A DNA stretch of 64,000 nucleotides, taken from the NCBI GenBank assembly GCA_000002435.2, contig CM018793.1; one strand, given 5' to 3'. Source of the DNA: Giardia intestinalis. Taxonomy: Eukaryota. Under the pieces are notes generated by a model that was given only the letters and a program-made list of their open reading frames with translations, did not search any database and was not told the origin of the DNA. Shown here piece after piece: positions 8 through 18,365 of the stretch (positions within the stretch are counted from its first letter, which is position 1; each line of letters opens with the position of its first letter). Both the position numbers and the translations under genes were made by a program.

Positions 8-607
8 TCAGGTAAAGCGTATCTGGCAGGTTTCCATCGCCCTGGCCCTGCAGTAGGGGCATTTGGCGTCTACACGCATTAGCAGCTCCGCGCAGGAGCT
101 GCAGACGCACAGATGCCCGCAGGGGACGAAGGCGTGCGTGCTCTGCTTATCTAAGCAGACGCAGCACTCCCCGTCGGGCAGCTGCACCCTCTTGACGGCT
201 TTGGGGCGGCGGCGGCGTAGGGCGGCTTGCTGTCTCCTGATTATCGTTTGAGCCTTGGCTAAATCGAAACCAAGGCTTCTCGCTGCCCCTTCCGCCCTAT
301 CAAGCTGCTCGTAGAGCTCAGATAGGGCGGTCCCCGCCGTTGTGTATTTGGCCAGGCGCTGCTCTAAAGAGCACTTCTCTTTCCTGGCCTGCGCGCGCTC
401 TGCCCAAAGCTTTTCGCGGAGCCTCTTCACTTTGAGGCCCCGACGCTTCGCCTGGCTGCTCGCCATTGCGAGCAGCTCTTCGGCCGATCGGAGGAGGTCC
501 AGCTCGTCCACCGTAGTGGAATCGAGCTGGAAATCCTCGTCCGGCGTTTGTGGGAAGCCCACAAAGCCGGGGAAGCCGATCATGCAGTCAAAAGGCGGAG
601 TAGTCAT
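8..607 (-). CDS. C-terminal C3HC4 RING-finger protein (E3 ligase-like) with a coiled-coil middle region
   Basis: 199-aa ORF. The C-terminus reads CCVCLDKQSTHAFVPCGHLCVCSSCAELLMRVDAKCPYCRA, which has C-x2-C...C-x-H-x2-C-x2-C...C-x2-C spacing. The region upstream of the ATG is A-rich. The stop lies inside AGTGAAT (reverse complement of nt 1-12). Confidence 0.7.
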   Translation of the reverse strand: MTTPPFDCMIGFPGFVGFPQTPDEDFQLDSTTVDELDLLRSAEELLAMASSQAKRRGLKVKRLREKLWAERAQARKEKCSLEQRLAKYTTAGTALSELYEQLDRAEGAARSLGFDLAKAQTIIRRQQAALRRRRPKAVKRVQLPDGECCVCLDKQSTHAFVPCGHLCVCSSCAELLMRVDAKCPYCRARAMETCQIRFT

Positions 608-1775: not shown

Positions 1776-4205
1776 ATGACGCGGCGCATCCAGTGCGGAG
1801 GCTCCAGCCTCGAGATCGACCCGCTGACCGGCGAGCTCTCCTTCGAGGACTTCCTGAACACGGCAGAGCCGCCCGAGCAGGACCCGATGCCCGTCCCGAA
1901 GATCGACGTCGGAGGATCGCTGGAGATACTTAACAGCCCGATTGTCGAGGCTATCTTCGGCGACGTCCTTGATAAGCTAGATCTTTTCAAGAAAGATGTC
2001 GACGCGTTCATTGCGATGCTCAAGCAGAAGACGAAGAACGCGATCAATTGGGGGTTAGCGTTAGTCGGCGTGACGACTGTCTCGGGCCTCATGGTCGTCA
2101 TGGTGAGAGAGATCACCATGGCCATCAAGCGCTGGCAGCGAACGAGAGAGTATCAGGACAGTCAGCAGCCAGAAGCCCAGCCGAAGATGATCTCCAAGGA
2201 GAACATGGAGAAGAAGGACGAGATCAGCGAGATTAGCGGCGAAGATGTGGAACCGCCGAGTCTCGGGGAGTACGAGGAGCAGGTGTATGACGAGAACGGC
2301 AACGCCATGTTGAATCCTGACGGCTCGCCGTTGACAAAGACAGTCGTTATCCCCCTCGATCGGGACATCTCCGACCAGTACGACCCAATTCCCGAACCCG
2401 ATGACATCTCAGAAGAGGAAGAGGAGATAGAAGAGGACGAAGTGGAAGAGGAGCCGCCCATCAAGATAACTGATGAGCTGATCAGCGATATCTTCTGGGA
2501 GTTCGACAAGCAGCCCATCCTCAACGAAGAGAACTTCGAGTTCCTCTACGACAGCGGCGTTTACATCATTCACATCCCCCACGTATATATGAAGCGTACA
2601 TGCAAGTTGGGCGGCGACTATGCGGCCTATCCCTGCAAGATGATCGAAAGCATCATCGGACCTGCCTTATGGGACAGATACGGCCATACATTCAAACTGC
2701 GCTTTCCAAACTGCTCACATCAAGTATCTGGTCCCATGGGCACTGAAATCTGTTGTAAGTGTCATATGAATGATTCAGTTCATTGGAGGATACGCGTAAT
2801 ACCGGACGATCAGCCTATATGGTATAACAACGACTGCACGTGCGGCGCTAATTGCAGTTGTCGTTGCCATACCAAGACTCCAGAGAGCGTCTTCACCGTA
2901 ACATACAATTGCGTTTTTTGGTGTGTTCCCTGTGCCACAAGATGTATCTATACCCAGTACGAATCTGACTGTTGGACTCATTACAATTTTTCCACGGATC
3001 GGGGCTTTAGATCAGAAAGTGTCGCCGATAGTAACGGTTTTAGTTCTGCATATATAATACCCGCAGGTAAAAAAATCATACGTTATGAGAGCGAAAACAA
3101 GAACTACCCATATAACTCGCGCGAGTGCTGTGACTTCTGCAAGGTGATGAAGAATTACTTTTACGAAACCGAGGGCTACAAGCTGCACCGCACCAACACA
3201 GAGGTCTACATCTTCTTCTCCCGCGGCGAGAACTCGACAATCTTCGAGAAATGCAACGACCTCTTCAATGGCTATGTGTCCCAGAAGATCCACGACCTTC
3301 TTTCAGACTGGGACGCTGGCAACAATAAGATCATGAATCGACTCAGCATCGACTGTAAGTGCGATGTGAAGCGGCCGCGCTGCACGGACGTCTTCCGAGG
3401 CCTGGGAGAGGTCCATGCTGATACCGTTGGTTTCCTAAAAGGCCATGCCCAGAAGGTCAAATGGATATACCTCCCCGACTACGATTCAAATCTCGGCTTG
3501 CCTTGGTGGTATGACGACCCGCACGACTACCAATCGATCTCGAAGGTCTGCGCATTCGAGGGCTTCCTCGAGCGCAACATCCCCGAGCACGTCATCCGCT
3601 TCTACTCTTACCGCAGACTCACAGACAAGAAGTGGTTCGGGAACCTCTACAAGCAGATCTGCGATGCGATACTCTTGGATTACCCAGACATGCCTGCGGG
3701 CATTGGGGCTGCTGCGCAGAAGTGGAAGGACTTCAACGCATGGAAAGGCATTGATAAGATGCTCAGCGACGTCGTTCCGGTTAAACAGATATATCCCGAA
3801 CAGGTTTATCCTGAGACGCGGCTCTTCACTAGCAAGCCGGCCAACTGGAACCAGCTGAAGCAGCGCGGCGCGAGTTGGACCGGCGAAGTAGAGCCAGAGC
3901 TCGCGTCCTTCAAGCGCTACCTCGACCTCCTCAACAAGTACTACCCGGGCTGGTGGGAGTTCCGGGAGACGCAGGAGCTCGGCTGGTGGGACAATTTCTG
4001 GACCCAGATACCCGACCTCAGGGACCTTGAGCGGACCTCCATCTTCTACTACGAGGACCTCACCATTGACGAGACCCACTATGAGATATACGGCGAACCT
4101 CCTTGGTGGCGCAGTTTCTGGGGGCCGACGATACGAGACAAGGCGCCCGACCCGGAGAGGCCGCGCACATACGAGGAAACAGTTGAAGTGGCAAGTCGAT
4201 ATTAG
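1776..4205 (+). CDS. membrane-anchored protein with an acidic linker, a Cys-rich central domain and a Trp-rich C-terminus (809 aa)
   Basis: A single hydrophobic span, WGLALVGVTTVSGLMVVMV, lies near aa 92-115. An EEEEEIEEDEVEEE tract follows. CxC/CxxC clusters are dense (CTCGANCSCRCH, CVFWCVPCATRC). The C-terminus has PGWWEF..GWWDNFW..PPWWRSFW. The stop lies in TAGTGAAT. Confidence 0.7.
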   Translation: MTRRIQCGGSSLEIDPLTGELSFEDFLNTAEPPEQDPMPVPKIDVGGSLEILNSPIVEAIFGDVLDKLDLFKKDVDAFIAMLKQKTKNAINWGLALVGVTTVSGLMVVMVREITMAIKRWQRTREYQDSQQPEAQPKMISKENMEKKDEISEISGEDVEPPSLGEYEEQVYDENGNAMLNPDGSPLTKTVVIPLDRDISDQYDPIPEPDDISEEEEEIEEDEVEEEPPIKITDELISDIFWEFDKQPILNEENFEFLYDSGVYIIHIPHVYMKRTCKLGGDYAAYPCKMIESIIGPALWDRYGHTFKLRFPNCSHQVSGPMGTEICCKCHMNDSVHWRIRVIPDDQPIWYNNDCTCGANCSCRCHTKTPESVFTVTYNCVFWCVPCATRCIYTQYESDCWTHYNFSTDRGFRSESVADSNGFSSAYIIPAGKKIIRYESENKNYPYNSRECCDFCKVMKNYFYETEGYKLHRTNTEVYIFFSRGENSTIFEKCNDLFNGYVSQKIHDLLSDWDAGNNKIMNRLSIDCKCDVKRPRCTDVFRGLGEVHADTVGFLKGHAQKVKWIYLPDYDSNLGLPWWYDDPHDYQSISKVCAFEGFLERNIPEHVIRFYSYRRLTDKKWFGNLYKQICDAILLDYPDMPAGIGAAAQKWKDFNAWKGIDKMLSDVVPVKQIYPEQVYPETRLFTSKPANWNQLKQRGASWTGEVEPELASFKRYLDLLNKYYPGWWEFRETQELGWWDNFWTQIPDLRDLERTSIFYYEDLTIDETHYEIYGEPPWWRSFWGPTIRDKAPDPERPRTYEETVEVASRY

Positions 4206-4215
4206 TGAATTTACT
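4204..4215. terminator. stop/poly(A) palindrome AGTGAATTTACT shared by convergent genes
   Basis: Stops at 4203-4205 (+) and 4214-4216 (-). Arms are AGTGAAT (+) and AGTAAAT (-). Confidence 0.55.
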
Positions 4216-7090
4216 AATAACTGATGTTTATAGCCGGGTTCTTTGCCCAGTACCAGATCTTCACCCGGTTACCTGAGCCAAGGGATCTCGAATTCGACCA
4301 TGTTAATCGTAGGTTAATGTACGAATCGCTAGTATAGTCCGACCACGAGACTATGATTGTGTCATATGTACTAACGCGACAATCATACGCCTGGATCGAG
4401 ACAATGTCGTCATTGGATCTGCTCTGCATGTCGCTCGGAAAGTCCGCGAGATTCAGTCGCATGAACCCGTTGCCGTCGGTCGTCTGACTCGGCACAAAGC
4501 TCTTCAGCAGACACGGCGTCTTGAGGGCGTTGCATATCCGCTCTGAGTAGCTGCACAGCGTCTCACAGTCAGTAATCCGGCTCAGCTGATTAGAGAGCTG
4601 AGAGGTGTTCTGAGCGATAGAAGCCAGAGCACCCGTGATCTTACCAGCTTGCTGACTGACGTTGTTCGAGATGACCTGCACCTGGTTGTAGAGCTGGTTA
4701 TAACAACTAATGTGCGAGTTCAGAGACGATTGGACACCGCTAATGCGATTCGTGTTCCCTAAGACAGAGTCCCAAATGCCGCGCTCATTCGACTCAAGCG
4801 CATTGATGCGAGTCTCCAGAGCAGGCACATTTCCAACATTGCCATCAAGACGAGTAAGGCTCTCTCGAATCTCGCTGATGCTCTGGTCGACTGCTGTCAT
4901 GTGGCGGTCATGTGCATCTAAGGCGTCCTGCGTAGAGTCTCTCAAGCTCTCTAGTCGACCGTTTATCTCTCTCGCTGAATTGTTAACTGCATCGATAGTA
5001 GTCGCGAACTCTGTCGTTGTCCTCTCTAACGAACCTATCTTCACCTCAGATGCTTCCACTGTCCTGCTCATCCGAGACAGCGATGAAGAGAAGGCTGCAT
5101 TGTCTGTCTCAAAGACGCCTACCTTTTCAGCGAGCCTTCGGATGATCTCGTCCTGTGCAGCAAGGCGTTCTTCAAAAGCGCTTGCCTTTGCGCGCTCCTC
5201 TTCTAACTGTCTCTCAAGAGAGTCGATACGCGCTGCCGTTAATTGAGCGCCCACCTTTGCCTCGACCTTCTGCTGGTCGATGAGCTCTCTGAGATAGTTG
5301 TACGCGCCCTCGAGGTCTCTCTTGATCGTCATAGCATCGATCAGACCTCCCTCGAAGTCGGGAACTGAGATGTCGTTCCGCTCAAAGAACTGTGCGACAA
5401 TGGTCATCAGAATCTCCATGCGGTTCCGGAACTCCATGAGACTGTCCTGGTTACCCTCGAGCACGCTCACGCGGTCCTTCGTTTCATCTAACTGAACGCG
5501 GTCATCGTCAGTGTGACTCGTCAAGTCCCGAATACGCTCTTCAGCTCGCTTTACTTCCAAATGGGTCAAGGTCATATCATCGTTTATGTGTGAGAACTCA
5601 TCCCAAATGAACTGGAAGCGTTTATAAAGATCATCAGTCAGAAACTTGTATATCTTGCCGAACTTATAGTCATGCTGGTCGAGGCGGTACTTCGCTTCCA
5701 CTGCATATGTAAGGGCTACCGCAGCGACGACGCCAAGACACGCGTCTATCACATATCCGGTAATCAAGTTAATCAGATTCAGCTTCCGGAAAAGACCGCC
5801 CCCTGCGGCGATAATAGTATCAAACTCGCCGAGCTTATCCTTCATCAGATCTTCCTTCGTGAACGTCTTCTTCTTGATGAGATCGATCTGGCCCTCGGCG
5901 CGCTTGATGCGAGCCTCTAGAGTCTTCCGCTGCTTCTCGAGACGGTTGATCTTTGAATCGGCTTTCATTGCGTGCTTAGCAAGATAACGCGTTTGATGTG
6001 AGATGCGTCCCTTGCTAAGCTTCTTGAGACTCTTAATGGCTGTAACGTTACCGCCGATCTTGTAGTACTTTCCGAGGTGCTTGCGAAGACCATTGTCCTC
6101 GTCGCCGTCCTCATCGAAGCCCTGAAGCTGTCGATAGAGCCACATTGTCTGCTGGTTGAGCGAGGCGGCCATGAAGTCTGCACGAGACACGCGACCATCG
6201 GGAGAGAGCTTCTGATTGCTGCGACCAGCAAGCGACCCGCCGACCATCTGATAGATATACTGGATCTGCTCGATGACCGGTTGGCTCTTCAAATCGTCTT
6301 CGCTAATAGCGCCCGTCACGCCCTTGATGGAGATATCAGCATCTCTTGCAGCTCGCAGCCCAAACGTCTCAGGCTTCTTTATCTTACGTGGCTTCTTCGG
6401 CTCCTTTGGCTTCCTCTCCTTCTTGAGCTTCTTCTTCTTATCTGTAAGCGGCAGAAGGTCCTCCCGAAAAGCATAGTTGCCCCTTACCATCCACGTGACA
6501 GCAAGGATCTTCTGAACAATCGTCAGGTCGCGCAAATAGTCGAGCTTGTTCGGCGCATTCATATAGTCCTCCGGCTGGAAGTTGTTGTTGAAGCCGACCA
6601 TTGGGACCGACTTGACCTTCGGCTTCGAGAGAGTCTGCCCGGTTAGAGACATCGTATAGAGATCCGCAGGCACAGTCTTGAAGCCCAGTATCTCCTCCAT
6701 GAACTTCACTAGAAACGCTAGACACGGACCCTTCACCGGAGACTCTCCGTCGAAGGCATTGCCGTTCCAGTTCTTGATTTCATAGTTCTCATGATTACAA
6801 TAGTACTTGATGCACTTCTTTCGCTGAGCGGGGTCAAGAAGCTGCACGGCGCAGTGTATTGTCTTCCCGCCAAAGTACCCCGATATGCAGTGAGTCTTGC
6901 TGAGATTCAGGTTAGACCCAAACAGAGCTTTGCGTTCGTCAGGCACTAAGGCACACTGCATCACGTAGTCTTTGATGAGGTTATAATGATACGATGAGAG
7001 TGCGCTGACCTTATCTGCGAACGACTGCATCGACTCTGTCGTCATGAAGACGCCGTCGAGCTGCTCCCTGCGGATGATGAGGTTGTTCAT
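4214..7090 (-). CDS. large protein (958 aa): N-terminal domain, basic KKKKLKKERKPKEPKKPRKIKKPE tract, one central hydrophobic span, long coiled coil and a beta-rich C-terminal head (fibre/spike-like architecture)
   Basis: Uninterrupted 958-aa ORF. The hydrophobic segment is LINLITGYVIDACLGVVAAVALTYAV. About 350 aa of heptad-like sequence follow (RIDSLERQLEEERAK, KIGSLERTTTEF, ETRINALESNERG). The terminal ~100 aa are rich in S/T/Y/W (VSWSDYTSDSYINLRLTWSNS...KIWYWAKNPAINISY). Confidence 0.75.
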   Translation of the reverse strand: MNNLIIRREQLDGVFMTTESMQSFADKVSALSSYHYNLIKDYVMQCALVPDERKALFGSNLNLSKTHCISGYFGGKTIHCAVQLLDPAQRKKCIKYYCNHENYEIKNWNGNAFDGESPVKGPCLAFLVKFMEEILGFKTVPADLYTMSLTGQTLSKPKVKSVPMVGFNNNFQPEDYMNAPNKLDYLRDLTIVQKILAVTWMVRGNYAFREDLLPLTDKKKKLKKERKPKEPKKPRKIKKPETFGLRAARDADISIKGVTGAISEDDLKSQPVIEQIQYIYQMVGGSLAGRSNQKLSPDGRVSRADFMAASLNQQTMWLYRQLQGFDEDGDEDNGLRKHLGKYYKIGGNVTAIKSLKKLSKGRISHQTRYLAKHAMKADSKINRLEKQRKTLEARIKRAEGQIDLIKKKTFTKEDLMKDKLGEFDTIIAAGGGLFRKLNLINLITGYVIDACLGVVAAVALTYAVEAKYRLDQHDYKFGKIYKFLTDDLYKRFQFIWDEFSHINDDMTLTHLEVKRAEERIRDLTSHTDDDRVQLDETKDRVSVLEGNQDSLMEFRNRMEILMTIVAQFFERNDISVPDFEGGLIDAMTIKRDLEGAYNYLRELIDQQKVEAKVGAQLTAARIDSLERQLEEERAKASAFEERLAAQDEIIRRLAEKVGVFETDNAAFSSSLSRMSRTVEASEVKIGSLERTTTEFATTIDAVNNSAREINGRLESLRDSTQDALDAHDRHMTAVDQSISEIRESLTRLDGNVGNVPALETRINALESNERGIWDSVLGNTNRISGVQSSLNSHISCYNQLYNQVQVISNNVSQQAGKITGALASIAQNTSQLSNQLSRITDCETLCSYSERICNALKTPCLLKSFVPSQTTDGNGFMRLNLADFPSDMQSRSNDDIVSIQAYDCRVSTYDTIIVSWSDYTSDSYINLRLTWSNSRSLGSGNRVKIWYWAKNPAINISY

Positions 7091-7159
7091 TATTTATTTT
7101 CCCCACTCACACCAACCATTTGAAAGTGGAATCTGTTCTGAGAAAATAAAATGACGTAA
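7091..7159. promoter_or_regulatory. conserved bidirectional intergenic cassette (copy C1) with a 2-codon uORF ATG-ACG-TAA abutting the polB ATG
   Basis: The sequence is tatttattttcc...CCAACCATTTGAAAGTGGAATCT...GAGAAAATAAAATGACGTAAATG. Related cassettes lie at 11795-11867, 18294-18365 and 19231-19343, with an orphan at 20700-20747. Confidence 0.5.
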
Positions 7160-10100
7160 ATGGCAACCACTAGGGAACTCCTGACCATGCATCCCCAGCA
7201 GATGTCCGAGGACCAGCTCGCCCAGCTCAAGACGTCGCTCGAGACGCTCAACTACACCCAGCTCCGACAATACGTGCTCGGCCGCGTCAAGCCCCTCATC
7301 GAGAACGTCCGCAAGCACATCCAGGAGGACCCCGTCGGCTCGGTAGATCAAGTCCTCGACTTCCAGGACGGCTTCTGGTCCAAGGACCTGATCCAGCGCG
7401 TCCGCTGGAACCTCGCCCAGTTCAGGGTAAACGAGAAGAACCCCCGCAGAGTGCCGACCAGCAGAGCGAAGGAGGCGCTGGAGCTGAACTACATGACCGA
7501 CTACTCCTTCCGGCGCATCGTCTACCCGATCGTCGCAGACCTCGCCAAGGCTCTTTATCTCCGCGCAGAGGAAGCTAACCGCCGCAACACCGACGCTTCG
7601 GTGCGCTATGTCCCGCTTCTTGTCATGTTCAACCAGCAGAACACGTTCGGCTATCCGCCCCGCGTCGCCTTCCTCGTGACGCCTGCCGTCATCACGTTCC
7701 TCCGCGGATGGAAGGTCTTCGCCGACGGAGACGACGCCCACCAGCACTACCTCAACGCGGTCACGAGGGACGCGGCGCAGATCCACGGCGTCCAGTCCGC
7801 AGAGCCTGGCGAGATGCTCTACTGCTTCAACTGGGACCCCATTTTCGCCGGCACAGAGAGCGACCCCGAGAACCCCCGCAACGCCATGTTCTCCTTCGGG
7901 ACGATGTACGAGCCCGTCTTCATCTTCCAGATCCAGATCATCCGCACCAGAGAGGGCCAGCGGAAGCTCATCCACCGCAGGGGAGGTATGGCGCCCTTCA
8001 CGAACGACTCGTTCTTCGACCTCACGCGCTACCAGATCGAGAAGACAGGCGAGGGCTTCAAGAACAGCAAGGACACGTGTTTCCTCTACGCCCTCAAGCA
8101 GAGCGGCGTGCTGAGCGACGACGAGATACGGGCCGCCGCCTTCCACATCAACCAGGCCTCTGTCACCTTCGCGATGATCGACGCCATCGGCAAGCAGCTC
8201 TTCGTCTGCTTCCACATGCACATGGCAGACAGGGTCGTCCTCAAGGGCGCGCAGAAGAACCGCAAGGTTCCGCCGGGCGTCGCGATCCGGAACATCCACC
8301 TGGGCTTCGACTTCAACCACTACTACATCTTCGACGAGAAGCTCCCCTACAGCAAGACGTACGTGAACAACGCAGCCGTCATGATGGAGCACCACACATA
8401 CCCCGCGAACACGAACCTGCGCGAGGTCAACGTCAGAGACACCTTCCACCCGCAGACCAGGGAGCCGACGAAGAAGGTCGTCTTCGGCTACCACCGCGAC
8501 GACGACCCCCATACATGCTCGAGTCGGGACCTCATCCTCTCGCTCCACAAGCAGGGCCTCCTCAAGCCCATCCGCTCCGACAGCCTGCTGGCCATCAAGG
8601 AGTCCTTCATCCGCGAAGAGCACTACGAGGAGGACGCGCTCAACTACTGCGAGGACCAGCTGAAGGAGATCACGCCGAAGAAGAAGACCCAGTCGCCCAA
8701 GGACGTCTGGTTCGCAGACTTCGAGACGACGACCGACGGGGACCAGCACCACCCGTTCCTCCTCTGCTTCCACGGGATCAACAACGTCACGGGGACGTAC
8801 TGGGCGAAGGACTACAACAGCATCGGGGACATGGTCCGAGCGGCCTTCAACCGCCTCGCGATGCTCAACCGGCCCCAGCTGGTGTACTTCCACAACCTCA
8901 ACTACGACGGGGCCTTCGTCCTCCCGTACTTCGACGTCAAGAAGGACAGCATCGTCACCCTCGGGGCGAGCAAGATCATCGCGTTCACGATCCATGTCCG
9001 GCTGAGCGACGACCGGAAGAACAAGCCGATCCCGATCCACTTCCGGGACTCCTACGCCCTGATCACGGCTCCCCTCAGCAAGTTCGGCAAGATGTTCAAC
9101 CTCAACGTGCACAAGGAGGTCCTCCCGTACTCGTTCTACACCCAGGACAACGTCAAGAAGCTGTGCCAGGGCTTCAAGCCGACGCTCGAGGAGTACCTCT
9201 CGTACGAGATCGAGAGCAGGAGGGAGGAGCTCGAGCAGCTGCTCCGTACGCTGCCGGAGATGCTGGTAATAGACAGGGTCGACGCCTTCAAGTACGCCCA
9301 CTACTACTGCGCAAGAGACTGCCACGTGCTCAAGGACGGGGTGATGGGCTTCAGACGCCAGCTCCTCGAGGTCACGGGCATCGACGCCTTCACATCCATG
9401 ACGCTCCCGAGCATTGCCTACAACTTCCTCATCAACGAGAAGTGCTTCGAGGGCTGCTTCAACCTCAACACGGCGCCGCTCCTCTTCGTACGCCAGTGCG
9501 TGACGGGCGGGCGCTGCATGCTCCGGTGCAACGAGAAGCAGTACGTCGAGGGCGAGGTCATGGACTTCGACGCCGTCTCGCTGTATCCGTCTGCCATGGC
9601 GCGCCTCCACACCCTCATGGGCCACCCGAAGATCGTCGACCCCGAGAAGCACGACCTCGGCTGGCTCCTCCGGCAGGACGGCTGCTTCCTCGAGATCGAC
9701 ATCGAGGTCGTCCCGAAGCAGCTCGACTTCCCCCTCATCAACAGGCAGACGGAGAAGGGGAGGCACTTCTCGAACGAGCCGGGCCCGATGTTCGCCGACA
9801 ACATCACGATCGAGGACATCATCGAGTACCACAAGGTCCCGATGAACCGGATCAGGGTCCTCCGGGGCTACTACTACGACGAGGGCAAGAACACGAACAT
9901 CCAGGCCGTCATCCGGAAGATCTTCGAAGCGCGGCTCAAGTTCAAGGCGGAGGGCAACCCGCTCGAGAGCATCTACAAGCTCATCATGAACAGCTGCTAC
10001 GGGAAGAGCATCCTCAAGCCCGTCTACAAGCGGATGAACACGGTCGACCACGCGGGCCTTGAGAGAGAGCTCCTCGACAACTCGGCCGATGTCCTCTGCT

Positions 10101-10756
10101 GGGAGCCGCTCTACGACGGCGGCCGCTTCCTCCTCAAGCAGAGCAAGCCCCTTCTGGAGGCGAACAGCTTCCCGACGTTCGGGGTCCAGGTGCTCTCGAT
10201 GAGCAAGCGCATCATGACGGAGGTGATGGCGACGGCCCAGGACCACGGGCTCCCGATCTACTACACAGACACGGACAGCATCCACATCGACAAGGCGTCC
10301 ATCGAGCCCCTCCGGAACTACTTCCACGCGCGCTTCCAGCGGGAGCTCATCGGGAAGAACCTCGGCCAGTTCCACTCAGACTTCCCCGACAGCCCCTCCG
10401 GGGAGATGTTCGTCAGCCGCTACTTCATCGGCGTCGGCAAGAAGGCATACCTCGACATCCTCCAGGACAGCCAGAACAACATGAGCTACCACGCGCGCCT
10501 CAAGGGCATCCCCGAGCAGGCGATCCTCAACGAGGCCCGGCAGCGCTGCTCCCACAACTTCCTCGGCGGGCTCTACAACCTCTACGCGGACCTCTACAAC
10601 GGCGTGCCCCAGACCTTCAACCTCATCTACGACGGCGCGGTGCGCTTCGTGCGAGACGCCAGCCTCGCCTACCGCTGCAGGGACGACTTCAAGCGGAGAG
10701 TCATCTTCGAGAGGGAGCCCGATGAGCCCCTGAACATATCAAAGCTGATGCAGTAA
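7160..10756 (+). CDS. family-B DNA polymerase of the protein-primed type (pPolB), 1198 aa, with a ~500-aa N-terminal extension
   Basis: Exo I is VWFADFETTTDG (aa ~517-527). Exo II is FHNLNYDGAF (aa ~577-586). Exo III is YYCARDCHVL (aa ~715-724). Motif A is DFDAVSLYPSAM (aa 802-813). Motif B is KLIMNSCYGKS (aa 940-950). Motif C is YYTDTDSIH (aa 1034-1042). A KKAY motif lies at aa ~1094-1097. The stop lies in AGTAAAT. Confidence 0.92.
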   Translation: MATTRELLTMHPQQMSEDQLAQLKTSLETLNYTQLRQYVLGRVKPLIENVRKHIQEDPVGSVDQVLDFQDGFWSKDLIQRVRWNLAQFRVNEKNPRRVPTSRAKEALELNYMTDYSFRRIVYPIVADLAKALYLRAEEANRRNTDASVRYVPLLVMFNQQNTFGYPPRVAFLVTPAVITFLRGWKVFADGDDAHQHYLNAVTRDAAQIHGVQSAEPGEMLYCFNWDPIFAGTESDPENPRNAMFSFGTMYEPVFIFQIQIIRTREGQRKLIHRRGGMAPFTNDSFFDLTRYQIEKTGEGFKNSKDTCFLYALKQSGVLSDDEIRAAAFHINQASVTFAMIDAIGKQLFVCFHMHMADRVVLKGAQKNRKVPPGVAIRNIHLGFDFNHYYIFDEKLPYSKTYVNNAAVMMEHHTYPANTNLREVNVRDTFHPQTREPTKKVVFGYHRDDDPHTCSSRDLILSLHKQGLLKPIRSDSLLAIKESFIREEHYEEDALNYCEDQLKEITPKKKTQSPKDVWFADFETTTDGDQHHPFLLCFHGINNVTGTYWAKDYNSIGDMVRAAFNRLAMLNRPQLVYFHNLNYDGAFVLPYFDVKKDSIVTLGASKIIAFTIHVRLSDDRKNKPIPIHFRDSYALITAPLSKFGKMFNLNVHKEVLPYSFYTQDNVKKLCQGFKPTLEEYLSYEIESRREELEQLLRTLPEMLVIDRVDAFKYAHYYCARDCHVLKDGVMGFRRQLLEVTGIDAFTSMTLPSIAYNFLINEKCFEGCFNLNTAPLLFVRQCVTGGRCMLRCNEKQYVEGEVMDFDAVSLYPSAMARLHTLMGHPKIVDPEKHDLGWLLRQDGCFLEIDIEVVPKQLDFPLINRQTEKGRHFSNEPGPMFADNITIEDIIEYHKVPMNRIRVLRGYYYDEGKNTNIQAVIRKIFEARLKFKAEGNPLESIYKLIMNSCYGKSILKPVYKRMNTVDHAGLERELLDNSADVLCWEPLYDGGRFLLKQSKPLLEANSFPTFGVQVLSMSKRIMTEVMATAQDHGLPIYYTDTDSIHIDKASIEPLRNYFHARFQRELIGKNLGQFHSDFPDSPSGEMFVSRYFIGVGKKAYLDILQDSQNNMSYHARLKGIPEQAILNEARQRCSHNFLGGLYNLYADLYNGVPQTFNLIYDGAVRFVRDASLAYRCRDDFKRRVIFEREPDEPLNISKLMQ

Positions 10757-10763
10757 ATTTACT
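10752..10763. terminator. perfect 12-bp stop/poly(A) palindrome AGTAAATTTACT
   Basis: Stops at 10754-10756 (+) and 10763-10765 (-). Confidence 0.6.
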
Positions 10764-11794
10764 TAGCGCTCCATAATCTCCTTGAACCTCCCAAAGGTTA
10801 GAGGCTCAGCATTGAAGAACTTCTTCTTCCTTGCCCACGCAGAGAGACGATCGAAGAAAGCCTCAGACGATATCTGCTTGTCCCCAATGGTAAAGCTGTA
10901 ACGACGATCATGATACTCATCAATATCGAACCAGGCGTCTGTGATCGCAAACTGACGCGTAACAGCAGCTGCCTTTATCAAACAGTACTGGCCACCGCTC
11001 CATATGGTTCCCACATGACCCGGCTCTATCGCGACAACTGGGTTGTAAATGCCCTTATGCTCGAGGAGGAACTCGTTCGTCTGCCTGATCGTGTCAAGCG
11101 CATCGACCTCGCACAGACGATGAGGATCATCCGAGGCCCTGTCCTTGATGTGGTCCTCACAGACAGCCGGGTCGATAGCGAAGCGCACATGGAAGGCCGG
11201 AAGGATGCCTGCGCGGAGCATGTAGTGGTCGATCAGGTAGTGGAGGTACTGGCCTTGCTCCTTCGTGATGTAGCCGTCACTCATCTTGAAGAGGATGAAC
11301 GCGCTAGTAGACGGCAGCCAGCGGTCGAAGATGATGAAGTCGTACTGCTGATACTCTTCGGCAAAACGGCAATGAAGAAGCTGCTTCCCCAGTGCATGGA
11401 CCACCTGCTCCTGGAACTGGAAAGCAAGCTCCCTGGGGTTCTTGTAGTACTCCTCGAGGGTGATGCCTCCGTTCTGTCCAAAGTGGTTGTCTGCCACGGC
11501 CTCCTCGATGATGGTAGCTTCGAAGCCTTGGTCGATCAGGTACTTCTTGAGATGCTTGCAGAAGGTGGACTTGCCTGCGCCGATGGGACCGTCAACAACG
11601 ATGATGCGAGGATCAATGACAACAGGCGGCACAACTCTCGAACTGAAATCGCTGAGCTTCCATACGAGGTTATCGTCCATGTTGATCCCGATGTCAACTG
11701 ACTCCAGAAAGTCTTCGACTGGCCAGTGTGATGATTTACTATCGATGAGGCCTGGCTCAGCTGGCTGGTTCTGGGGCTCGTAGTACTGGCTCAT
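10763..11794 (-). CDS. deoxynucleoside kinase family protein (dNK/dCK-like P-loop kinase) with N- and C-terminal extensions
   Basis: The start was trimmed to MSQYYEPQNQ, which follows ggaaaataaa. The P-loop is VVDGPIGAGKST. Other dNK-like motifs are IIEEAV, LEEYYKNPRELAFQFQ and IIFDRWLPSTSAF (ERS-like), plus the lid-like HIKDRASDD. Order and spacing resemble Drosophila dNK and dCK/dGK. Confidence 0.75.
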   Translation of the reverse strand: MSQYYEPQNQPAEPGLIDSKSSHWPVEDFLESVDIGINMDDNLVWKLSDFSSRVVPPVVIDPRIIVVDGPIGAGKSTFCKHLKKYLIDQGFEATIIEEAVADNHFGQNGGITLEEYYKNPRELAFQFQEQVVHALGKQLLHCRFAEEYQQYDFIIFDRWLPSTSAFILFKMSDGYITKEQGQYLHYLIDHYMLRAGILPAFHVRFAIDPAVCEDHIKDRASDDPHRLCEVDALDTIRQTNEFLLEHKGIYNPVVAIEPGHVGTIWSGGQYCLIKAAAVTRQFAITDAWFDIDEYHDRRYSFTIGDKQISSEAFFDRLSAWARKKKFFNAEPLTFGRFKEIMER

Positions 11795-11867
11795 TTTATT
11801 TTCCCAGTAGTGCACGTCTCAAGAGCCAAACCATTTTAAAGTGAATTCTCCCCACGGAAATAAAAGT
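11795..11867. promoter_or_regulatory. conserved bidirectional intergenic cassette (copy C2)
   Basis: The sequence is tttattttcc...GCCAAACCATTTTAAAGTGAATTCTCCCC..GGAAATAAAAGTATG. Confidence 0.5.
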
Positions 11868-12122
11868 ATGGCTGGCCACCTTCTCAACAGCAACGGGACC
11901 GCGAAGAACGAGAACAAGCTCTACACCCAGAAGCCGACGCCCTTCTACGACGCGGGCACGGTGCCGGTCCGTCTGTCCTCGGTACCCTTCGAGAGCCGCA
12001 ACGAGCCGATCCGCGTCCAGATCGACGAGCCGCCCAAGCAGCGCCCGCGAGCTGGTCTAGTGCGCACCCGCAAGAGGATGATCCCGAGGAACCGCTGGAA
12101 GAGGAACGGGAACAAGCAGTAA
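11868..12122 (+). CDS. small basic protein (84 aa), island-specific
   Basis: The start was trimmed to MAGHLL, which follows GGAAATAAAAGT. The C-terminus is basic (RAGLVRTRKRMIPRNRWKRNGNKQ). A paralog lies at 18366-18617. The stop lies in AGTAAAC. Confidence 0.55.
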   Translation: MAGHLLNSNGTAKNENKLYTQKPTPFYDAGTVPVRLSSVPFESRNEPIRVQIDEPPKQRPRAGLVRTRKRMIPRNRWKRNGNKQ

Positions 12123-12131
12123 ACGTTTACT
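12118..12131. terminator. perfect 14-bp stop/poly(A) palindrome AGTAAACGTTTACT
   Basis: Stops at 12120-12122 (+) and 12127-12129 (-). Confidence 0.6.
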
Positions 12132-12723
12132 TCGAGATCTCCTCGAGGAAGCGGTTGAAGGTGTTCGTCTCGGTGGAGGCGTTGAGGAAGCGCTGGATGC
12201 CGTCAGCCCACGCCTGGGCGCTCTCGTCGCTGATGCTGAGACAGGTGGCTGTGTACGTGCGCTTGTTCTTGGGAAGCCTCGAGAGCCTCACGAACTCGTC
12301 TCCGGTCTCCTCGTAGAGATAGAAGGCAGAGCGTGCTCCATCAGAAGCGCGTCTGCAGAAAGCGGTGTAGTGAGGGGCTTGCACGAACTCGTCCTCGGGT
12401 CGCTTGACGAAGCGGAAGACGACGCCCTGCTGGTTGAGCCACTTGCAGAACCAGGAGGTGACTCGCTGATAGTCCTCAGTACCCTCAGCGCACTCTGCGG
12501 TGACTCGACCGAGCAGTCTTCCGACCTGGCCGCAAAAGGACTTAAACGCGGGACTGGACGGGGCGGGAGGATTTGCCACTGGCAGAACGGGCTCGGCGTC
12601 GGCGGTCTGTCGCTGTCGGGTTCTAGAGGCAGACTTCCTATGAGTGGGCTCTCTGGAGGAAGGAATGACATCTTGAAGGAAGGGGTCCTCGGCGAAGTGC
12701 TCTGGTATGAATCCATCTGCCAT
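12127..12723 (-). CDS. hypothetical protein (198 aa), island-specific
   Basis: The protein begins MADGFIPEHF and the ATG follows aggaaaataaaataagc. A paralog lies at 18622-19230, with the C-terminal ~130 aa well conserved. Confidence 0.6.
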   Translation of the reverse strand: MADGFIPEHFAEDPFLQDVIPSSREPTHRKSASRTRQRQTADAEPVLPVANPPAPSSPAFKSFCGQVGRLLGRVTAECAEGTEDYQRVTSWFCKWLNQQGVVFRFVKRPEDEFVQAPHYTAFCRRASDGARSAFYLYEETGDEFVRLSRLPKNKRTYTATCLSISDESAQAWADGIQRFLNASTETNTFNRFLEEISK

Positions 12724-12754
12724 GCTTATTTTATTTTCCTGGGAGCCCTGTAAC

Positions 12755-12839: not shown

Positions 12840-13679
12840 TTACTTTGCAAACAGCTTTACGATGTCTTCCTTGTCTCCGGCAATGGCCAACGCAAAAACC
12901 CTACCATTATTGATGTCCTTCTCCTTATCTGCCAACAAAGCAGCACAAGCAGCATGGCCATTTCTCACAGCCCACTCGAAAGCAGTACCACGGGCGTTAT
13001 TGCATAACCTGGCCTCCTTATCTAACAACAGCTTGACGATGTCTGCGTAACCACAGGATGCTGCTAGCATGAGAGCGGTCCAGCCGTCGTTATCCTTCAT
13101 GCCTGCCTCCTTCTCCGCTAATAGGTTAGCGCACTTAGTGTGACCCTTACACGCAGCCCACATGAGAGCAGTCCTACCATCTTTATTCTTCATGCCGGCC
13201 TCCTTCTCTAACAACAGCTTAACGCTGTATGCGGAATCCTTGGATGCTGCTATTATGAGAGCCGACCCGCAGCATCTCGCACATATACCGGCCTCCTTCT
13301 TCACTAGCAGGTCAACGCACTTAAAATTAAACTTACTCACAGCCCACATGAGGGCGGTCCTACCGATGACATCCTTCATACCAGCCTCCTTCTCTAACAG
13401 CAGCTTAACGCAGTCTGTATAGCCTTCGGATGCTGCTATCATGAGAGCCGTCAAGCCGTGTCCATCACTCATACCAGCCTCCTTCTCCACTAGCAGGTTA
13501 GCGCAGTTAGTATGACCCTCCCTCGCAGCCCACATGAGGGCAGTCCAGCTGTTGAAATCCCTCAGGCCAGCCTCCTTGTCTACTAGTTCCCTGACGACAT
13601 CGATGTTACCTTGCGCTGCTGCTTCTATGAGATCCCTAAAACCATATCCTGGCGACTTGTATTCTCGATAAGCCTTCAT
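12840..13679 (-). CDS. ankyrin-repeat protein (279 aa, ~8 repeats of the TALMWAA..GH..CV.LL..KEAG type)
   Basis: A regular ~33-aa ANK periodicity runs through the whole ORF. The start is ggaaaataaaatATG. The stop lies in AAGTAAAC. Confidence 0.88.
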   Translation of the reverse strand: MKAYREYKSPGYGFRDLIEAAAQGNIDVVRELVDKEAGLRDFNSWTALMWAAREGHTNCANLLVEKEAGMSDGHGLTALMIAASEGYTDCVKLLLEKEAGMKDVIGRTALMWAVSKFNFKCVDLLVKKEAGICARCCGSALIIAASKDSAYSVKLLLEKEAGMKNKDGRTALMWAACKGHTKCANLLAEKEAGMKDNDGWTALMLAASCGYADIVKLLLDKEARLCNNARGTAFEWAVRNGHAACAALLADKEKDINNGRVFALAIAGDKEDIVKLFAK

Positions 13680-13701
13680 ATTTTATTTTCCTCCCCGCCC
13701 T

Positions 13702-14161
13702 GAATCAATTAATCAGATCAGAATCAATTCGTCAGAATGGTTTGCACTTCCTGACTGCCGCCTCCCAGAAAAAAAAAATAACGCTGGCCTGCTTTCTGCT
13801 TTCGGGCTGTCTGTATGTCGCACTTCGGTGTCGTGCGGGCCCGGGGGCAGGGAGCAGACCAGGCTGGCCGGCAGCTGAACCGGGCGCGAACGCATCACAC
13901 ACATCCAAGGACAACGCGGTCTCCTCCCGGCGTGCACGGCACCACGCTGGGCGGTTCCGGGGGGAGGCCGCGATTTTTTTTGAAAATTTACAGGTTTTTT
14001 ATTCTGTTGAAAAGTAGGTAAACGAGCGCCAGCGTGTGGGAGCCTAGTGGGCGGACCGGCACACGCAGACGCACTTGTGGGGGACGCTTTCGTTTTTTTG
14101 GGCCCAGCCCCGTGCAGGCCCAAAAAAACGAAAGTGGGCACCACAAGGATATATACTACTG
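13702..14161. repeat. repeat module R, copy A (~460 bp)
   Basis: Colinear with 19809-20231. The order is a GAATCA array, A10-TAACGCT, a conserved core GTATGTCGCAC..GGTGTCGTGCGGGC, ~190 bp of GC-rich sequence, T8 and an AT-rich tract, an 18-bp-stem hairpin (14087-14134), then GGATATATACTACTG. Homology stops abruptly after this last motif. Confidence 0.85.
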
Positions 14162-17100: not shown

Positions 17101-17229
17101 TACGACGGCGCCGTCCGCTTCGTCCGCGACGCGCACCTCGCCTACCGCTGCCGCGACGACTTCAAGCGCCGCGTCATCTTCGAGAAGGAGCCCGACGCGC
17201 CCCTGAACGTCGTCAAGCTCATGCAGTGA
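14162..17229 (+). pseudogene. second pPolB copy, 5'-truncated (starts at the equivalent of aa ~173) and frame-broken around Exo II
   Basis: The 14075-15478 frame and the 14560-17229 frame together are colinear with polB aa ~173-1198. Motifs A, B, C and KKAY are intact (DFDAVSLYPSAM, KLIMNSCYGKS, YYTDTDS). A net 10 nt are missing between 15274 and 15474. There is no ATG or promoter at the 5' junction with module R. Confidence 0.85.
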
Positions 17230-17236
17230 ATTTACT
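17225..17236. terminator. stop/poly(A) palindrome AGTGAATTTACT
   Basis: Stops at 17227-17229 (+) and 17232-17234 (-). Confidence 0.55.
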
Positions 17237-18293: not shown

Positions 18294-18365
18294 TTTATTT
18301 CCTGGCGGCCTCCCCAATAAATGCCAAAGCATTTGAAAGTGAATTCTCCCGCCAAAAATAAAAGT
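18294..18365. promoter_or_regulatory. conserved bidirectional intergenic cassette (copy C3)
   Basis: The sequence is tttatttcc...GCCAAAGCATTTGAAAGTGAATTCTCCCGCCAAAAATAAAAGTATG. Confidence 0.5.

What the first reader, a model, noticed from the sequence alone, without database searches (positions are those of the whole stretch)
4214..7090. 958-aa TM-anchored coiled-coil 'stalk plus head' protein resembling viral attachment fibres
Seen: a ~440-aa N-terminal region with an NLS-like Lys/Pro tract, then one hydrophobic span. About 350 aa of heptad-rich sequence follow, with recurring x-I/L-x-S-L-E-R/x units (RIDSLERQL, KIGSLERTT, RLESLRDS, RINALESNE). The protein ends in a compact S/T/Y/W-rich ~100-aa terminal domain. 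Established: coiled-coil stalks ending in a beta-rich head are the design of reovirus sigma1-type and other viral fibre/attachment proteins. Inference: this is a candidate virion or cell-surface spike of the element.
Basis: partly seen in the sequence, partly recalled or inferred. Interest (0 to 1): 0.6.

Follow-up and report, generated by a model that had tools for sequence, protein, structure and literature searches.

The report
Membrane-anchored coiled-coil fibre of Giardia Polinton-like virus
The gene (Giardia intestinalis WB GL50803_16686, annotated only as hypothetical) encodes an orphan protein built like a membrane-anchored stalk with a small head, and it belongs to an integrated Polinton/Maverick-like DNA virus, where it is most likely a surface or virion fibre, though this is untested.

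Summary
ORF 4214-7090(-) is a real, conserved 958-aa gene: Giardia intestinalis WB GL50803_16686, annotated "hypothetical protein".

Its layout:
- a conserved ~430-aa N-terminal region with an invariant Lys/Pro basic tract
- one hydrophobic span (aa 437-466)
- a conserved helical segment
- a ~240-aa coiled coil in a single heptad register, about 35 nm long
- a ~100-aa C-terminal beta-sandwich (AF2 pLDDT 90) with no significant structural neighbour

It is not a host cytoskeletal protein. In every locus recovered it sits between a protein-primed DNA polymerase and an ~800-aa Cys-rich membrane protein. These lie inside a ~25-kb element that also encodes dNK, an A32-type packaging ATPase and a weak rve-like integrase, so the element is Polinton/Maverick-like.

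The N-terminal domain has no relatives among 1.84 billion representative proteins. N-terminal, stalk and head modules are exchanged between lineages, under purifying selection.

Best reading (about 0.4): a type-II-oriented fibre of the element, used for attachment or entry, or displayed on the cell surface. It resembles reovirus sigma1 in design only and is not a family member. Membrane insertion, oligomeric state, virion location and expression are all untested. This is a new variant of a known kind, of moderate interest.

The parts
4214..7090 (-). Whole gene, 958 aa plus stop codon (GL50803_16686)
   Evidence: ORF list. Exact match to XP_001707487.1 / A8BF58. 27 homologue clusters.
6443..7090 (-). 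N-terminal conserved region N1, aa 1-216. The extreme N-terminus MNNLIIR.EQLDG is invariant.
   Evidence: Alignment A1. Mean pairwise identity 67%. No relatives outside the family among 1.84e9 representatives. The AF2 model is unusable, pLDDT 38.7.
6368..6442 (-). Basic Lys/Pro tract, aa 217-241 (NLS-like or DNA-binding)
   Evidence: K223 K224 K227 K232 K233 P234 R235 K236 are invariant in 17 sequences.
6305..6367 (-). Variable linker, aa 242-262
   Evidence: Length 19-54 aa within the family, 58% gaps. In P0027 it is expanded to a ~350-aa Pro/Thr/Ser/Gly repeat insert.
6005..6304 (-). Most conserved region N2, aa 263-362 (MVGGS..GR.NQKL...RVSRA.FMAA..NQQTMWLYRQ)
   Evidence: Mean pairwise identity 79%. 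dN/dS 0.07 for aa 263-432, WB vs P15.
5795..6004 (-). Helix before the hydrophobic span, aa 363-432, with a heptad signal at 371-408
   Evidence: AF2 secondary structure H365-409 and H413-428, pLDDT 51-73. Heptad score above the 99% shuffle threshold.
5693..5782 (-). Single hydrophobic span, aa 437-466, the candidate signal-anchor / transmembrane helix. N438, N441 and D449 are conserved.
   Evidence: Invariant residues. Hydrophobic character is retained in the distant P0027.
5261..5692 (-). Conserved aromatic-rich helical segment after the span, aa 467-610
   Evidence: Mean identity 67%, few gaps. Alignment A4.
4541..5260 (-). Coiled-coil stalk, aa 611-850, about 33 heptads in one register, with a hinge at DGNVGNVPALE (749-759)
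   Evidence: Most variable region: 42% mean identity, length 211-265 aa. PDB profile hits lie only here.
4217..4540 (-). C-terminal beta-sandwich head, aa 851-958 (WYWAKNPA near the end)
   Evidence: AF2 pLDDT 89.7. No significant fold match. Head swapped between otherwise near-identical genes.
7091..7159 (.). 69-bp divergent intergenic spacer shared with the pPolB gene. An A/T-rich initiator-like sequence (AAATAAATA) abuts the target's ATG.
   Evidence: Sequence read directly.
7160..10756 (+). Context: protein-primed family-B DNA polymerase, 1198 aa
   Evidence: PF03175 E 5e-37. The divergent pairing with the target is conserved in L001, L002, L003, L005 and L006.
1776..4205 (+). Context: 809-aa neighbour GL50803_3666, convergent with the target (8-bp gap). 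It has an N-proximal hydrophobic span at aa 92-110, an acidic tract, a Cys-rich region and a Trp-rich C-end.
   Evidence: Synteny in every locus where that flank is held: L001-L005, L007-L010, L013, L014; in the distant L006 only a cut ORF lies there.
10763..11815 (-). Context: deoxynucleoside kinase-like gene of the element
   Evidence: 83% identical to the PF01712-bearing ORF of L005.

Best explanation
**What it is.** GL50803_16686 is a gene of an integrated, roughly 25-kb Polinton/Maverick-like DNA virus of Giardia. It encodes a membrane-anchored fibre.

**How it is probably oriented (inferred).** The protein has no signal peptide, and 436 residues are made before the only hydrophobic span. 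The span should therefore act as a signal-anchor. That leaves the conserved N-terminal region, with its basic tract, on the cytosolic or nucleoplasmic (or particle-interior) side. The C-terminal 490 residues would go to the exoplasmic side.

**What it would then display (inferred).** Parallel helices zip into a ~35-nm coiled-coil stalk that holds a small beta-sandwich head at its tip. The invariant N-terminus and N-terminal region would dock the protein to a conserved partner of the element. The exchangeable stalk and head would contact the target cell, for attachment or entry, possibly together with the adjacent 809-aa Cys-rich membrane protein.

**Shown versus inferred.**
- Shown: gene reality, domain layout, the heptad constraint, the beta-sandwich prediction, the element context, module mosaicism and purifying selection.
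- Inferred: membrane insertion and topology, oligomeric state, location in a particle or on the cell surface, and the attachment role.
For: **Element context.**
- pPolB is adjacent (PF03175, E 5e-37).
- The order dNK, pPolB, target, ~800-aa membrane protein is conserved in three 24-33-kb metagenome contigs and in Giardia P15; the distant contig L006 keeps the divergent pPolB-target pair and the fragmented GS contig the target-~800-aa pair.
- The same elements carry an A32-type packaging ATPase (25.9 bits, above the Pfam cut-off of 22.8) and a weak rve-like ORF.

**Architecture.**
- There is a single hydrophobic span and no N-terminal signal sequence.
- The heptad register is conserved across the family even where sequence identity is about 25%.
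- The head model is confident.

**Fibre-like evolution.**
- The N-terminus is invariant and the distal stalk is variable, with indels.
- Modules are swapped between lineages. WB vs P0002 is 97% identical over aa 1-262 but 57% over 611-850. P0008 vs P0017 is 97% identical in the N-terminal region but 56% in the head.
- The target and its 809-aa neighbour are among the most divergent large genes of the element: 45-62% against 72-87% for pPolB, 85-89% for the integrase-like ORF and 93% for the ATPase.
- dN/dS is 0.07-0.31, so the gene is maintained.

**Other points.**
- The target and the 809-aa neighbour are the only two element proteins with hydrophobic spans, and they are adjacent.
- Family-profile hits in PDB sequences are led by fibrous proteins that are described as trimeric (my knowledge): P22 gp26, sigma1, fibritin and trimeric autotransporters.
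- The weak fold matches of the head are enriched in phage tail-fibre and tailspike distal domains.
- There is a precedent for a membrane entry protein in Mavericks: nematode MFUS-1 (bioRxiv 10.1101/2022.07.12.499685).
Against: - No capsid protein or protease was identified in the element. No fold could be predicted for the candidates, so particle formation rests on the packaging ATPase alone.
- The hydrophobic span carries a conserved Asp and two Asn. Its crude dGapp is positive (+2.4 to +5.5), so membrane insertion is plausible but marginal.
- The head is fairly conserved (61% mean identity, dN/dS 0.13-0.22), not hypervariable as many receptor-binding tips are.
- The a/d composition (a = L/I/V, d = mostly L) does not discriminate dimer from trimer.
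- The tight, conserved divergent pairing with the polymerase gene would fit a replication-linked role equally well.
- Fold matches are all below significance.
- There are no expression, localisation or particle data. No paper in the searched library mentions the gene.
- The family is absent from IMG/VR viral contigs.
Confidence: 0.4

Rival explanations
1. An intracellular organiser, not a spike. The protein would be anchored in the ER or inner nuclear membrane of the infected cell. The NLS-like tract plus a disordered linker plus a membrane span would serve as an inner-nuclear-membrane targeting device. It would tether replication or assembly of the element to the nuclear envelope. Its stalk and head would sit in the lumen, topologically like SUN-domain proteins.
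For: - The basic tract is invariant and followed by a length-variable, disordered-looking linker, which is hugely expanded in P0027.
- The N-terminal region is the most conserved part.
- The start codon lies 69 bp (window) or 7 bp (L006) from the divergent pPolB gene in all lineages, which suggests co-regulation with replication genes.
- The overall layout (N-terminal domain, one span, coiled coil, C-terminal beta-sandwich) matches the SUN layout as I recall it from established knowledge.
Against: - There is no Sad1/UNC Pfam hit.
- Swapping of the stalk and head modules between lineages is easier to explain for an externally exposed part than for a lumenal tether.
Confidence: 0.25
2. Not a membrane protein. 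The hydrophobic span would be buried in an oligomeric helical core, and the protein would be a soluble fibre, cement, scaffold or length-determining protein of the particle.
For: - The crude insertion energy is positive, and Asp449, Asn438 and Asn441 are conserved within the span.
- Helical segments with heptad signal lie on both sides of the span.
- There are weak PHROG hits to tape-measure proteins, E 2e-6 to 2e-5, all in coiled-coil regions.
Against: - The span is about 30 residues long and is by far the most hydrophobic segment in every homologue. Its hydrophobic character is kept in P0027 although the sequence has changed.
- The aromatic-rich juxta-span segment is typical of membrane interfaces (my inference).
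- The tape-measure hits are compositional.
Confidence: 0.15
3. A class-I-like fusion protein. The hydrophobic span would be an internal fusion peptide followed by a heptad repeat.
For: In the distant homologue P0027 the span and its flanks align to henipavirus-type F0 across the cleavage site, the fusion peptide and the start of HRA. The phmmer E-value is 8.6e-4, and 10 of 12 PDB hits are paramyxovirus F proteins.
Against: - The match is not reproduced with the window protein or with the family profile.
- There is no signal peptide, no second heptad repeat followed by a C-terminal anchor, and no multibasic cleavage motif directly before the span in the main family.
- The match lies in an Ala/Gly/Thr-rich segment, so it is probably compositional.
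Confidence: 0.07
4. A replication accessory or terminal protein partner of the protein-primed polymerase.
For: The gene is adjacent to and divergently paired with pPolB in all lineages. It has an NLS-like basic tract, as reported for terminal proteins (my recollection, not tested here).
Against: - The polymerase already carries a ~560-aa N-terminal extension upstream of its PF03175 domain, the usual place of a fused terminal protein in such elements (established knowledge).
- A span, a 35-nm coiled coil and a beta-sandwich head have no counterpart in terminal proteins.
Confidence: 0.05
5. A host cytoskeletal coiled-coil protein, as the Giardia GS annotation 'spindle pole protein, putative' implies.
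For: - A database name is given to the GS fragment.
- There are sub-threshold coiled-coil hits: SMC and Rad50 in NCBIfam; crescentin and CEP85 in Pfam.
Against: - All such hits fall far below the family cut-offs and lie only in the heptad region.
- Every homologue whose context was read sits inside the element.
- There is no paralogue in the 40 kb of host genes in the window.
- The N-terminal domain has no relatives outside the family.
Confidence: 0.03

Closest known systems
Reovirus sigma1 / avian reovirus sigmaC attachment fibres
   Same: An N-terminal anchoring part, an alpha-helical coiled-coil stalk, and a small C-terminal beta-rich head. The family profile hits sigma1 coiled-coil fragments at E 1e-5 to 5e-4.
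Phage trimeric coiled-coil fibres (P22 tail needle gp26, T4 fibritin) and phage tail-fibre / tailspike distal domains
   Different: All matches are compositional or below significance. The host is eukaryotic. There is a membrane span and a large orphan N-terminal domain.
Paramyxovirus attachment glycoproteins (HN/H/G)
   Same: Type II orientation (inferred here): N-terminal cytoplasmic part, one span, a helical stalk and a C-terminal beta-rich head. The gene is encoded next to a second membrane glycoprotein-like gene.
   Different: Their N-terminal tails are short, their stalk is a four-helix bundle and their head is a six-bladed propeller. There is no sequence or fold similarity.
SUN-domain proteins of the nuclear envelope
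   Same: The same order of parts: an N-terminal nucleoplasmic domain, one span, a long coiled coil and a C-terminal beta-sandwich.
MFUS-1, the gB-like fusogen of nematode Mavericks (bioRxiv 10.1101/2022.07.12.499685)
   Same: A large single-span membrane protein carried by a Maverick/Polinton-type element and proposed to mediate entry.
   Different: MFUS-1 has a signal peptide, a C-terminal span and a class III fusogen fold. The Giardia protein has none of these.

Membership tests
Reovirus sigma1-type attachment fibre | Sequence-family membership (Pfam sigma1 models) | tested here: not met
   No such family appears among the Pfam hits at E <= 0.1.
Reovirus sigma1-type attachment fibre | Head with the sigma1 / adenovirus-knob-type beta-barrel fold | tested here: not met
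Reovirus sigma1-type attachment fibre | Parallel trimeric coiled-coil stalk | tested here: inconclusive
   The heptad register is conserved over about 33 heptads, and the profile hits favour trimeric fibres. The a/d composition does not fix the oligomeric state, and no multimer prediction was available.
Single-span (type II) membrane protein | One hydrophobic segment long and hydrophobic enough to span a bilayer, and no cleavable signal peptide | tested here: inconclusive
   There is a unique ~30-aa span, conserved in character. Its crude dGapp is +2.4 to +5.5 because of the conserved Asp and Asn residues. The N-terminus is not hydrophobic. Insertion itself is not testable with these tools.
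Polinton/Maverick-like element (context of the gene) | Protein-primed family-B DNA polymerase | tested here: met
   PF03175, E 5e-37 at window 7160-10756. A second, truncated copy lies at 14560-17229.
Polinton/Maverick-like element (context of the gene) | FtsK/HerA-A32-type genome-packaging ATPase | tested here: met
   PF04665 at 25.9 bits (cut-off 22.8) in L011 8032-8976. The syntenic 314-aa ORFs in L012 and L014 carry only a faint precomputed PF04665 mark, and the L012 copy is 93% identical to the L011 one. This part of the element lies outside the window.
Polinton/Maverick-like element (context of the gene) | Retroviral-type (rve) integrase | tested here: inconclusive
   The 342-aa ORF gives PF00665 at E 0.0015 and 19.2 bits, below the cut-off of 32.6. 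A profile of five homologues finds nothing in PDB sequences.
Polinton/Maverick-like element (context of the gene) | Double jelly-roll major capsid protein, penton protein and adenain-like protease | tested here: inconclusive
   The ORFs of contig_1735 gave no Pfam hit, the large ORFs tried (487/898/783 aa) gave no NCBIfam hit, and the 487-aa ORF gave no PDB-sequence hit.
Polinton/Maverick-like element (context of the gene) | Terminal inverted repeats | not tested
   Both ends of one element were never held together. Only shared non-coding motifs at one end were seen.
SUN-domain protein | C-terminal Sad1/UNC domain | tested here: not met
Paramyxovirus-type class I fusion protein | Signal peptide, cleavage site before the fusion peptide, two heptad repeats and a C-terminal anchor | tested here: not met
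   None of these can be seen in the sequence or alignment. The F0 similarity is found only for the distant homologue P0027, not for the window protein or the family profile.

The most novel reading that the evidence does not exclude
The ~25-kb element is, or recently was, an infectious membrane-containing DNA virus of Giardia. That would be the first DNA virus of a diplomonad. Its entry machinery would be a new two-component system: this type-II coiled-coil fibre with an orphan head, plus the adjacent Cys/Trp-rich 809-aa membrane protein. This would be a second, independent route, besides the gB-like fusogen of nematode Mavericks, by which a Polinton-type element gained membrane-based cell entry.
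Probability: 0.15. Interest if true: 0.8.

Novelty: new variant of a known kind. Interest (0 to 1): 0.5.

Why it matters
No DNA virus of Giardia turned up in the literature searches made here. Polinton/Maverick elements are suspected to be viruses, but how they leave and enter cells is mostly unknown. The only proposed entry protein I found is the gB-like fusogen of nematode Mavericks.

A conserved, intact, purifying-selected pair of membrane proteins sits in a Giardia element that also keeps a packaging ATPase. One of the pair is built as a 35-nm fibre with exchangeable stalk and head modules. This gives a concrete, taggable candidate, GL50803_16686 in the standard laboratory strain WB, for testing three things:
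- whether the element makes particles
- how the particles recognise Giardia
- whether the element could be turned into a DNA delivery tool for this parasite

If the protein instead proves to be a nuclear-envelope tether, it would still be a new virus-encoded membrane organiser. As it stands, the finding is a well-described orphan protein with a plausible but unproven role.

Tried and rejected
**Searches and predictions that gave nothing useful**
1. Pfam, PHROGs and NCBIfam scans of the protein gave only sub-threshold coiled-coil noise: ATG17-like, crescentin, SMC, Rad50 and tape-measure models. I rejected these as compositional.
2. AF2 on the N-terminal 432 aa with eight sequences gave pLDDT 38.7, which is unusable and was not searched further.
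3. A profile of the N-terminal domain against 1.84e9 representatives found family members and fragments only.
4. A head-domain profile against the 5.8e9-protein collection found only fragments of the same family.
5. A scan of IMG/VR viral contigs found no relative.
7. Profile and sequence searches of PDB sequences found nothing for the rve-like ORF or for the 487-aa ORF next to the ATPase, so neither the integrase nor the capsid identity is settled.
8. Literature searches for the locus tags, for Giardia with Polinton, Maverick, protein-primed or endogenous viral element, and the P15 and assemblage A genome papers gave no description of this gene or element. The only trace is a Giardia pPolB placed in a Polinton-like virus tree.

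**Ideas tested and dropped**
1. The fusion-peptide idea. The F0 match holds for P0027 but not for the window protein or the family profile. I kept it only as a low-probability rival.
2. The 'recurring units' as true repeats. Self-BLAST of the stalk finds none.
3. Paralogues in the window. There are none.
4. The claim that the target evolves uniquely fast. Several other large ORFs of the element (487, 783 and 898 aa) are equally or more divergent.


Full report
**What is there**

The window is Giardia intestinalis WB. Its host part (about 24-64 kb) encodes delta-giardin, TBCC, Glu/Gln-tRNA synthetase and a proteasomal AAA ATPase. These proteins match WB database entries exactly. The ORF at 4214-7090 on the minus strand is 958 aa. 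It is GL50803_16686 / XP_001707487.1 / A8BF58, annotated 'hypothetical protein'. No paper in the searchable library mentions it or its neighbour GL50803_3666.

**Check of the observation**

- **Basic tract.** The Lys/Pro tract starts at aa 218. Its core (K223 K224 K227 K232 K233 P234 R235 K236) is invariant in 17 homologues.
- **Hydrophobic span.** One segment stands out, aa ~437-466. There is no N-terminal signal-like sequence.
- **Heptads.** The four quoted motifs lie at 621, 684, 712 and 761, spaced by multiples of seven. A single heptad register fits about 33 heptads between aa 614 and 850, with a hinge at 749-759.
- **Heptad constraint across the family.** Positions a and d are 60% and 54% LIVMF, against 4-21% at the other five positions. 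Glu is enriched at e and Arg at g. The pattern holds in the clade that shares only about 25% identity with WB in this region. This shows selection for a coiled coil and not for a particular sequence.
- **Corrections.** The coiled coil is about 240 aa (roughly 35 nm), not 350. Residues 467-610 are a conserved, aromatic-rich helical segment. There are no true sequence repeats.
- **C-terminal domain.** The last ~100 residues fold, in an AF2 model of aa 839-958 (14 sequences, pLDDT 89.7, pTM 0.75), into the end of the stalk helix followed by a six-strand beta-sandwich.

**The gene is real and maintained**

A search of 5.8 billion clusters found 27 homologue clusters, 25 of them full length at ~950-990 aa. 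They include Giardia P15 (GLP15_4357) and a Giardia GS fragment named 'spindle pole protein, putative'. In GS the gene is split into two ORFs by a frameshift. Pairwise dN/dS between WB and P15 is 0.07-0.31 by region and is highest in the stalk.

**Context: a Polinton/Maverick-like element**

The gene is divergently paired with a 1198-aa protein-primed DNA polymerase (PF03175, E 5e-37). The spacer between them is 69 bp, and an A/T-rich initiator-like sequence abuts the ATG. The gene converges, with an 8-bp gap, on an 809-aa ORF. That ORF has an N-proximal hydrophobic span, an acidic tract, many Cys residues and a Trp-rich C-end.

The order dNK, pPolB, target, ~800-aa ORF recurs in the following loci:
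- three metagenome contigs of 24-33 kb
- Giardia P15
- several WB-like assemblies
- a further 24-kb contig seen in 12 samples, which shows the ~800-aa ORF and the target before the held stretch ends

A much more divergent contig carries a 1311-aa homologue, P0027, paired divergently with a pPolB in the same way; its dNK was not identified and the ORF on its other flank is cut.

Walking along these contigs gives an element of about 25 kb with this gene order: 488-aa ORF, 314-aa ATPase, small ORFs, 875-900-aa ORF, 342-aa ORF, ~800-aa ORF, small ORFs including a RING-finger protein, then the ~805-aa membrane protein, the target, pPolB, dNK and small ORFs. In the Giardia DH contig L012 the dNK-side block appears inverted relative to this order.

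- The ATPase matches poxvirus A32 above the Pfam cut-off, 25.9 against 22.8 bits.
- The 342-aa ORF has only a sub-threshold rve hit.
- No capsid protein or protease could be named.

In the window the pPolB-to-end segment is partly duplicated twice downstream, so the WB insertion is rearranged at that end. A Giardia pPolB has appeared in a published tree of Polinton-like viruses (PMC4642659). I found no description of the element itself.

**The family is an orphan**

- A profile of the N-terminal 432 aa, searched against 1.84 billion representative proteins, returned only family members and fragments.
- A head-domain profile found only fragments of the same family.
- IMG/VR viral contigs hold no relative.
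- AF2 could not fold the N-terminal region, pLDDT 38.7.

**Comparisons with known structures**

A family profile against all PDB sequences gives 34 hits at E <= 0.01. All of them lie in the coiled coil. They are led by P22 tail needle gp26 (1e-7), reovirus sigma1 (1e-5), T4 fibritin (7e-5), a phage tail-tip fibre, trimeric autotransporter adhesins, and coronavirus and influenza fusion cores. By my recollection most of these are trimers. The match is one of composition and periodicity, not homology. The a/d residues (a = L/I/V, d = mainly L) do not settle the oligomeric state.

The head model has no significant neighbour:

| Search | Best match |
|---|---|
| Foldseek vs PDB | E 0.37 |
| Foldseek vs BFVD | E 1e-3, TM-score 0.51 or less |

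The weak matches are enriched in phage tail-fibre and tailspike distal domains and in jelly-roll capsid proteins. I treat this as a hint only.

**Evolutionary behaviour**

Conservation is uneven along the protein:

| Region | Mean pairwise identity | Note |
|---|---|---|
| N1, aa 1-216 | 67% | |
| N2, aa 263-362 | 79% | |
| Span, aa 433-466 | 71% | |
| Post-span, aa 467-610 | 67% | |
| Stalk, aa 611-850 | 42% | length 211-265 aa |
| Head, aa 851-958 | 61% | |

Modules are exchanged between lineages:

| Pair | One part | Another part |
|---|---|---|
| WB vs P0002 | 97% over aa 1-262 | 57% in the stalk |
| P0002 vs P15 | 72% in N1 | 87-100% from the span onward |
| P0008 vs P0017 | 97% in the N-terminal region | 56% in the head |
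| P0023 vs P0025 | 75% in N1 | 96-99% in the C-terminal half |

Between WB and P15 the polymerase is 97.7% identical, while the target is 71% and the 809-aa neighbour 74%.

Compared with one metagenome element, the target (45-62%) and the membrane neighbour (47-66%) fall in the divergent class of genes. The ATPase (93%), the integrase-like ORF (85-89%) and the polymerase (72-87%) are conserved. Other large ORFs are equally divergent, so this behaviour is not unique to the target.

The target and its neighbour are the only two element proteins with hydrophobic spans.

**Most likely mechanism**

This part is inferred. With 436 residues made before the only hydrophobic segment, and no signal peptide, the established rules for signal-anchor proteins predict an N-terminus-inside, C-terminus-outside orientation. 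The conserved N-terminal region, including the invariant first 13 residues and the basic tract, would remain inside, where it could bind a conserved partner such as a capsid component or DNA. The stalk and head would project about 35 nm from the exoplasmic face of a cell or particle membrane.

Three features match what I recall of viral attachment fibres:
- a conserved proximal end with a variable, recombining distal end
- placement next to the only other membrane protein of the element
- the presence of a packaging ATPase, which implies particles

I give this reading about 0.4.

**Rivals**

- **A nuclear-envelope or ER tether for replication or assembly (0.25).** It is supported by the NLS-like tract plus variable linker, by the very tight pairing with the polymerase gene, and by a SUN-like order of parts. 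There is no SUN domain.
- **A soluble fibre or scaffold whose hydrophobic helix is buried (0.15).** The span carries a conserved Asp and two Asn, and its crude insertion energy is positive.
- **A class-I-like fusion protein (0.07).** In P0027 the span and its flanks align to henipavirus-type F0 across the fusion peptide (E 8.6e-4). This fails for the window protein and for the family profile, and the rest of the class I layout is missing.
- **A terminal-protein-like replication partner (0.05).**
- **A host cytoskeletal protein (0.03).** This is effectively refuted by context, by the orphan N-terminal domain and by the sub-threshold nature of all coiled-coil family hits.

**Verdict**

It resembles sigma1-type fibres in design, but it fails both membership tests that could be run. 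Its location and function are unproven. It is best classed as a new variant of a known kind (viral fibre or spike-like proteins) in an under-described Giardia Polinton-like element. Interest is moderate.

Noticed in passing
window 7677-12740 vs 14160-19247, and ~20150-20800: The right-hand part of the element (the 3' two-thirds of pPolB, dNK and small ORFs) is duplicated in tandem at about 6.5-kb spacing with 82-93% identity. A third short fragment follows. The second pPolB copy (14560-17229, 889 aa) is truncated at its N-terminus.
   Followed up: partly
window 13700-14150 (hairpin 14074-14147; copy at 20149-20234): A non-coding block lies at the junction between the copies. It holds a 31-nt inverted repeat (GGGGGACGCTTTCGTTTTTTTGGGCC / GGCCCAAAAAAACGAAAG...) and short motifs. 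By eye, similar motifs occur at the left end of metagenome contig L001. This is possibly the element terminus or origin region.
   Followed up: partly
window 12840-13679 (-): An ankyrin-repeat gene (279 aa; internal 93-nt periodicity) lies between the two element copies. A homologue sits at the equivalent place in the Giardia P15 contig (L005 3003-3650), so it may be cargo of the element in Giardia genomes. It is absent from the metagenome contigs.
   Followed up: no
window 1776-4205 (+), GL50803_3666: An 809-aa orphan protein with an N-proximal hydrophobic span (aa 92-110), an acidic low-complexity tract, a Cys-rich region with many CxxC-like spacings and a Trp-rich C-terminus (GWWEFRE..GWWDNFW..PPWWRSFW). 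It is always adjacent to the target. It is a candidate partner or fusogen.
   Followed up: partly
L006 5034-8969 (P0027): A distant 1311-aa homologue carries a ~350-aa Pro/Thr/Ser/Gly-rich repeat insert (KPSTGD..., GIIQTPEYVKP...) directly after the basic tract. Its hydrophobic span resembles the henipavirus F fusion peptide and its flanks (phmmer E 8.6e-4).
   Followed up: partly
L011 8032-8976; L012 1831-2775; L014 2153-3097: A 314-aa A32-type packaging ATPase of the element is divergently paired with a 487/488-aa orphan ORF in L011 and L014. The L012 copy is 93% identical to the L011 one. The 487-aa ORF is only 47% identical across lineages where the ATPase is 93% identical. Whether it is the major capsid protein is unknown.
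   Followed up: partly
L012 (Giardia DH contig AHGT01000070.1) 10146-16498: In the assemblage A2 isolate DH, the block carrying the small ORFs and dNK appears inverted relative to its orientation in the other elements. This suggests rearrangement or head-to-head copies.
   Followed up: no
L013 637-3629 (Giardia GS contig ACGJ01002501.1): In isolate GS the homologue is split into 538-aa and 458-aa ORFs by a frameshift. The first half carries the database name 'spindle pole protein, putative'. This is either a pseudogene or an assembly error.
   Followed up: no
L001-L003, L006, L011, L014: Related elements differ widely in G+C (46-65%) while keeping gene order. This hints at different host species or lineages among the gut metagenome samples.
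   Followed up: no
window 8-607 (-) and L007 8233-8832: A RING-finger (zf-C3HC4) protein of about 200 aa is encoded inside the element, in the WB-like contigs (L007-L009), DH (L012), L003 and L014; the window ORF is the same length and sits at the equivalent place but was not scanned itself. This is unusual cargo that could target host proteins for ubiquitination.
   Followed up: no
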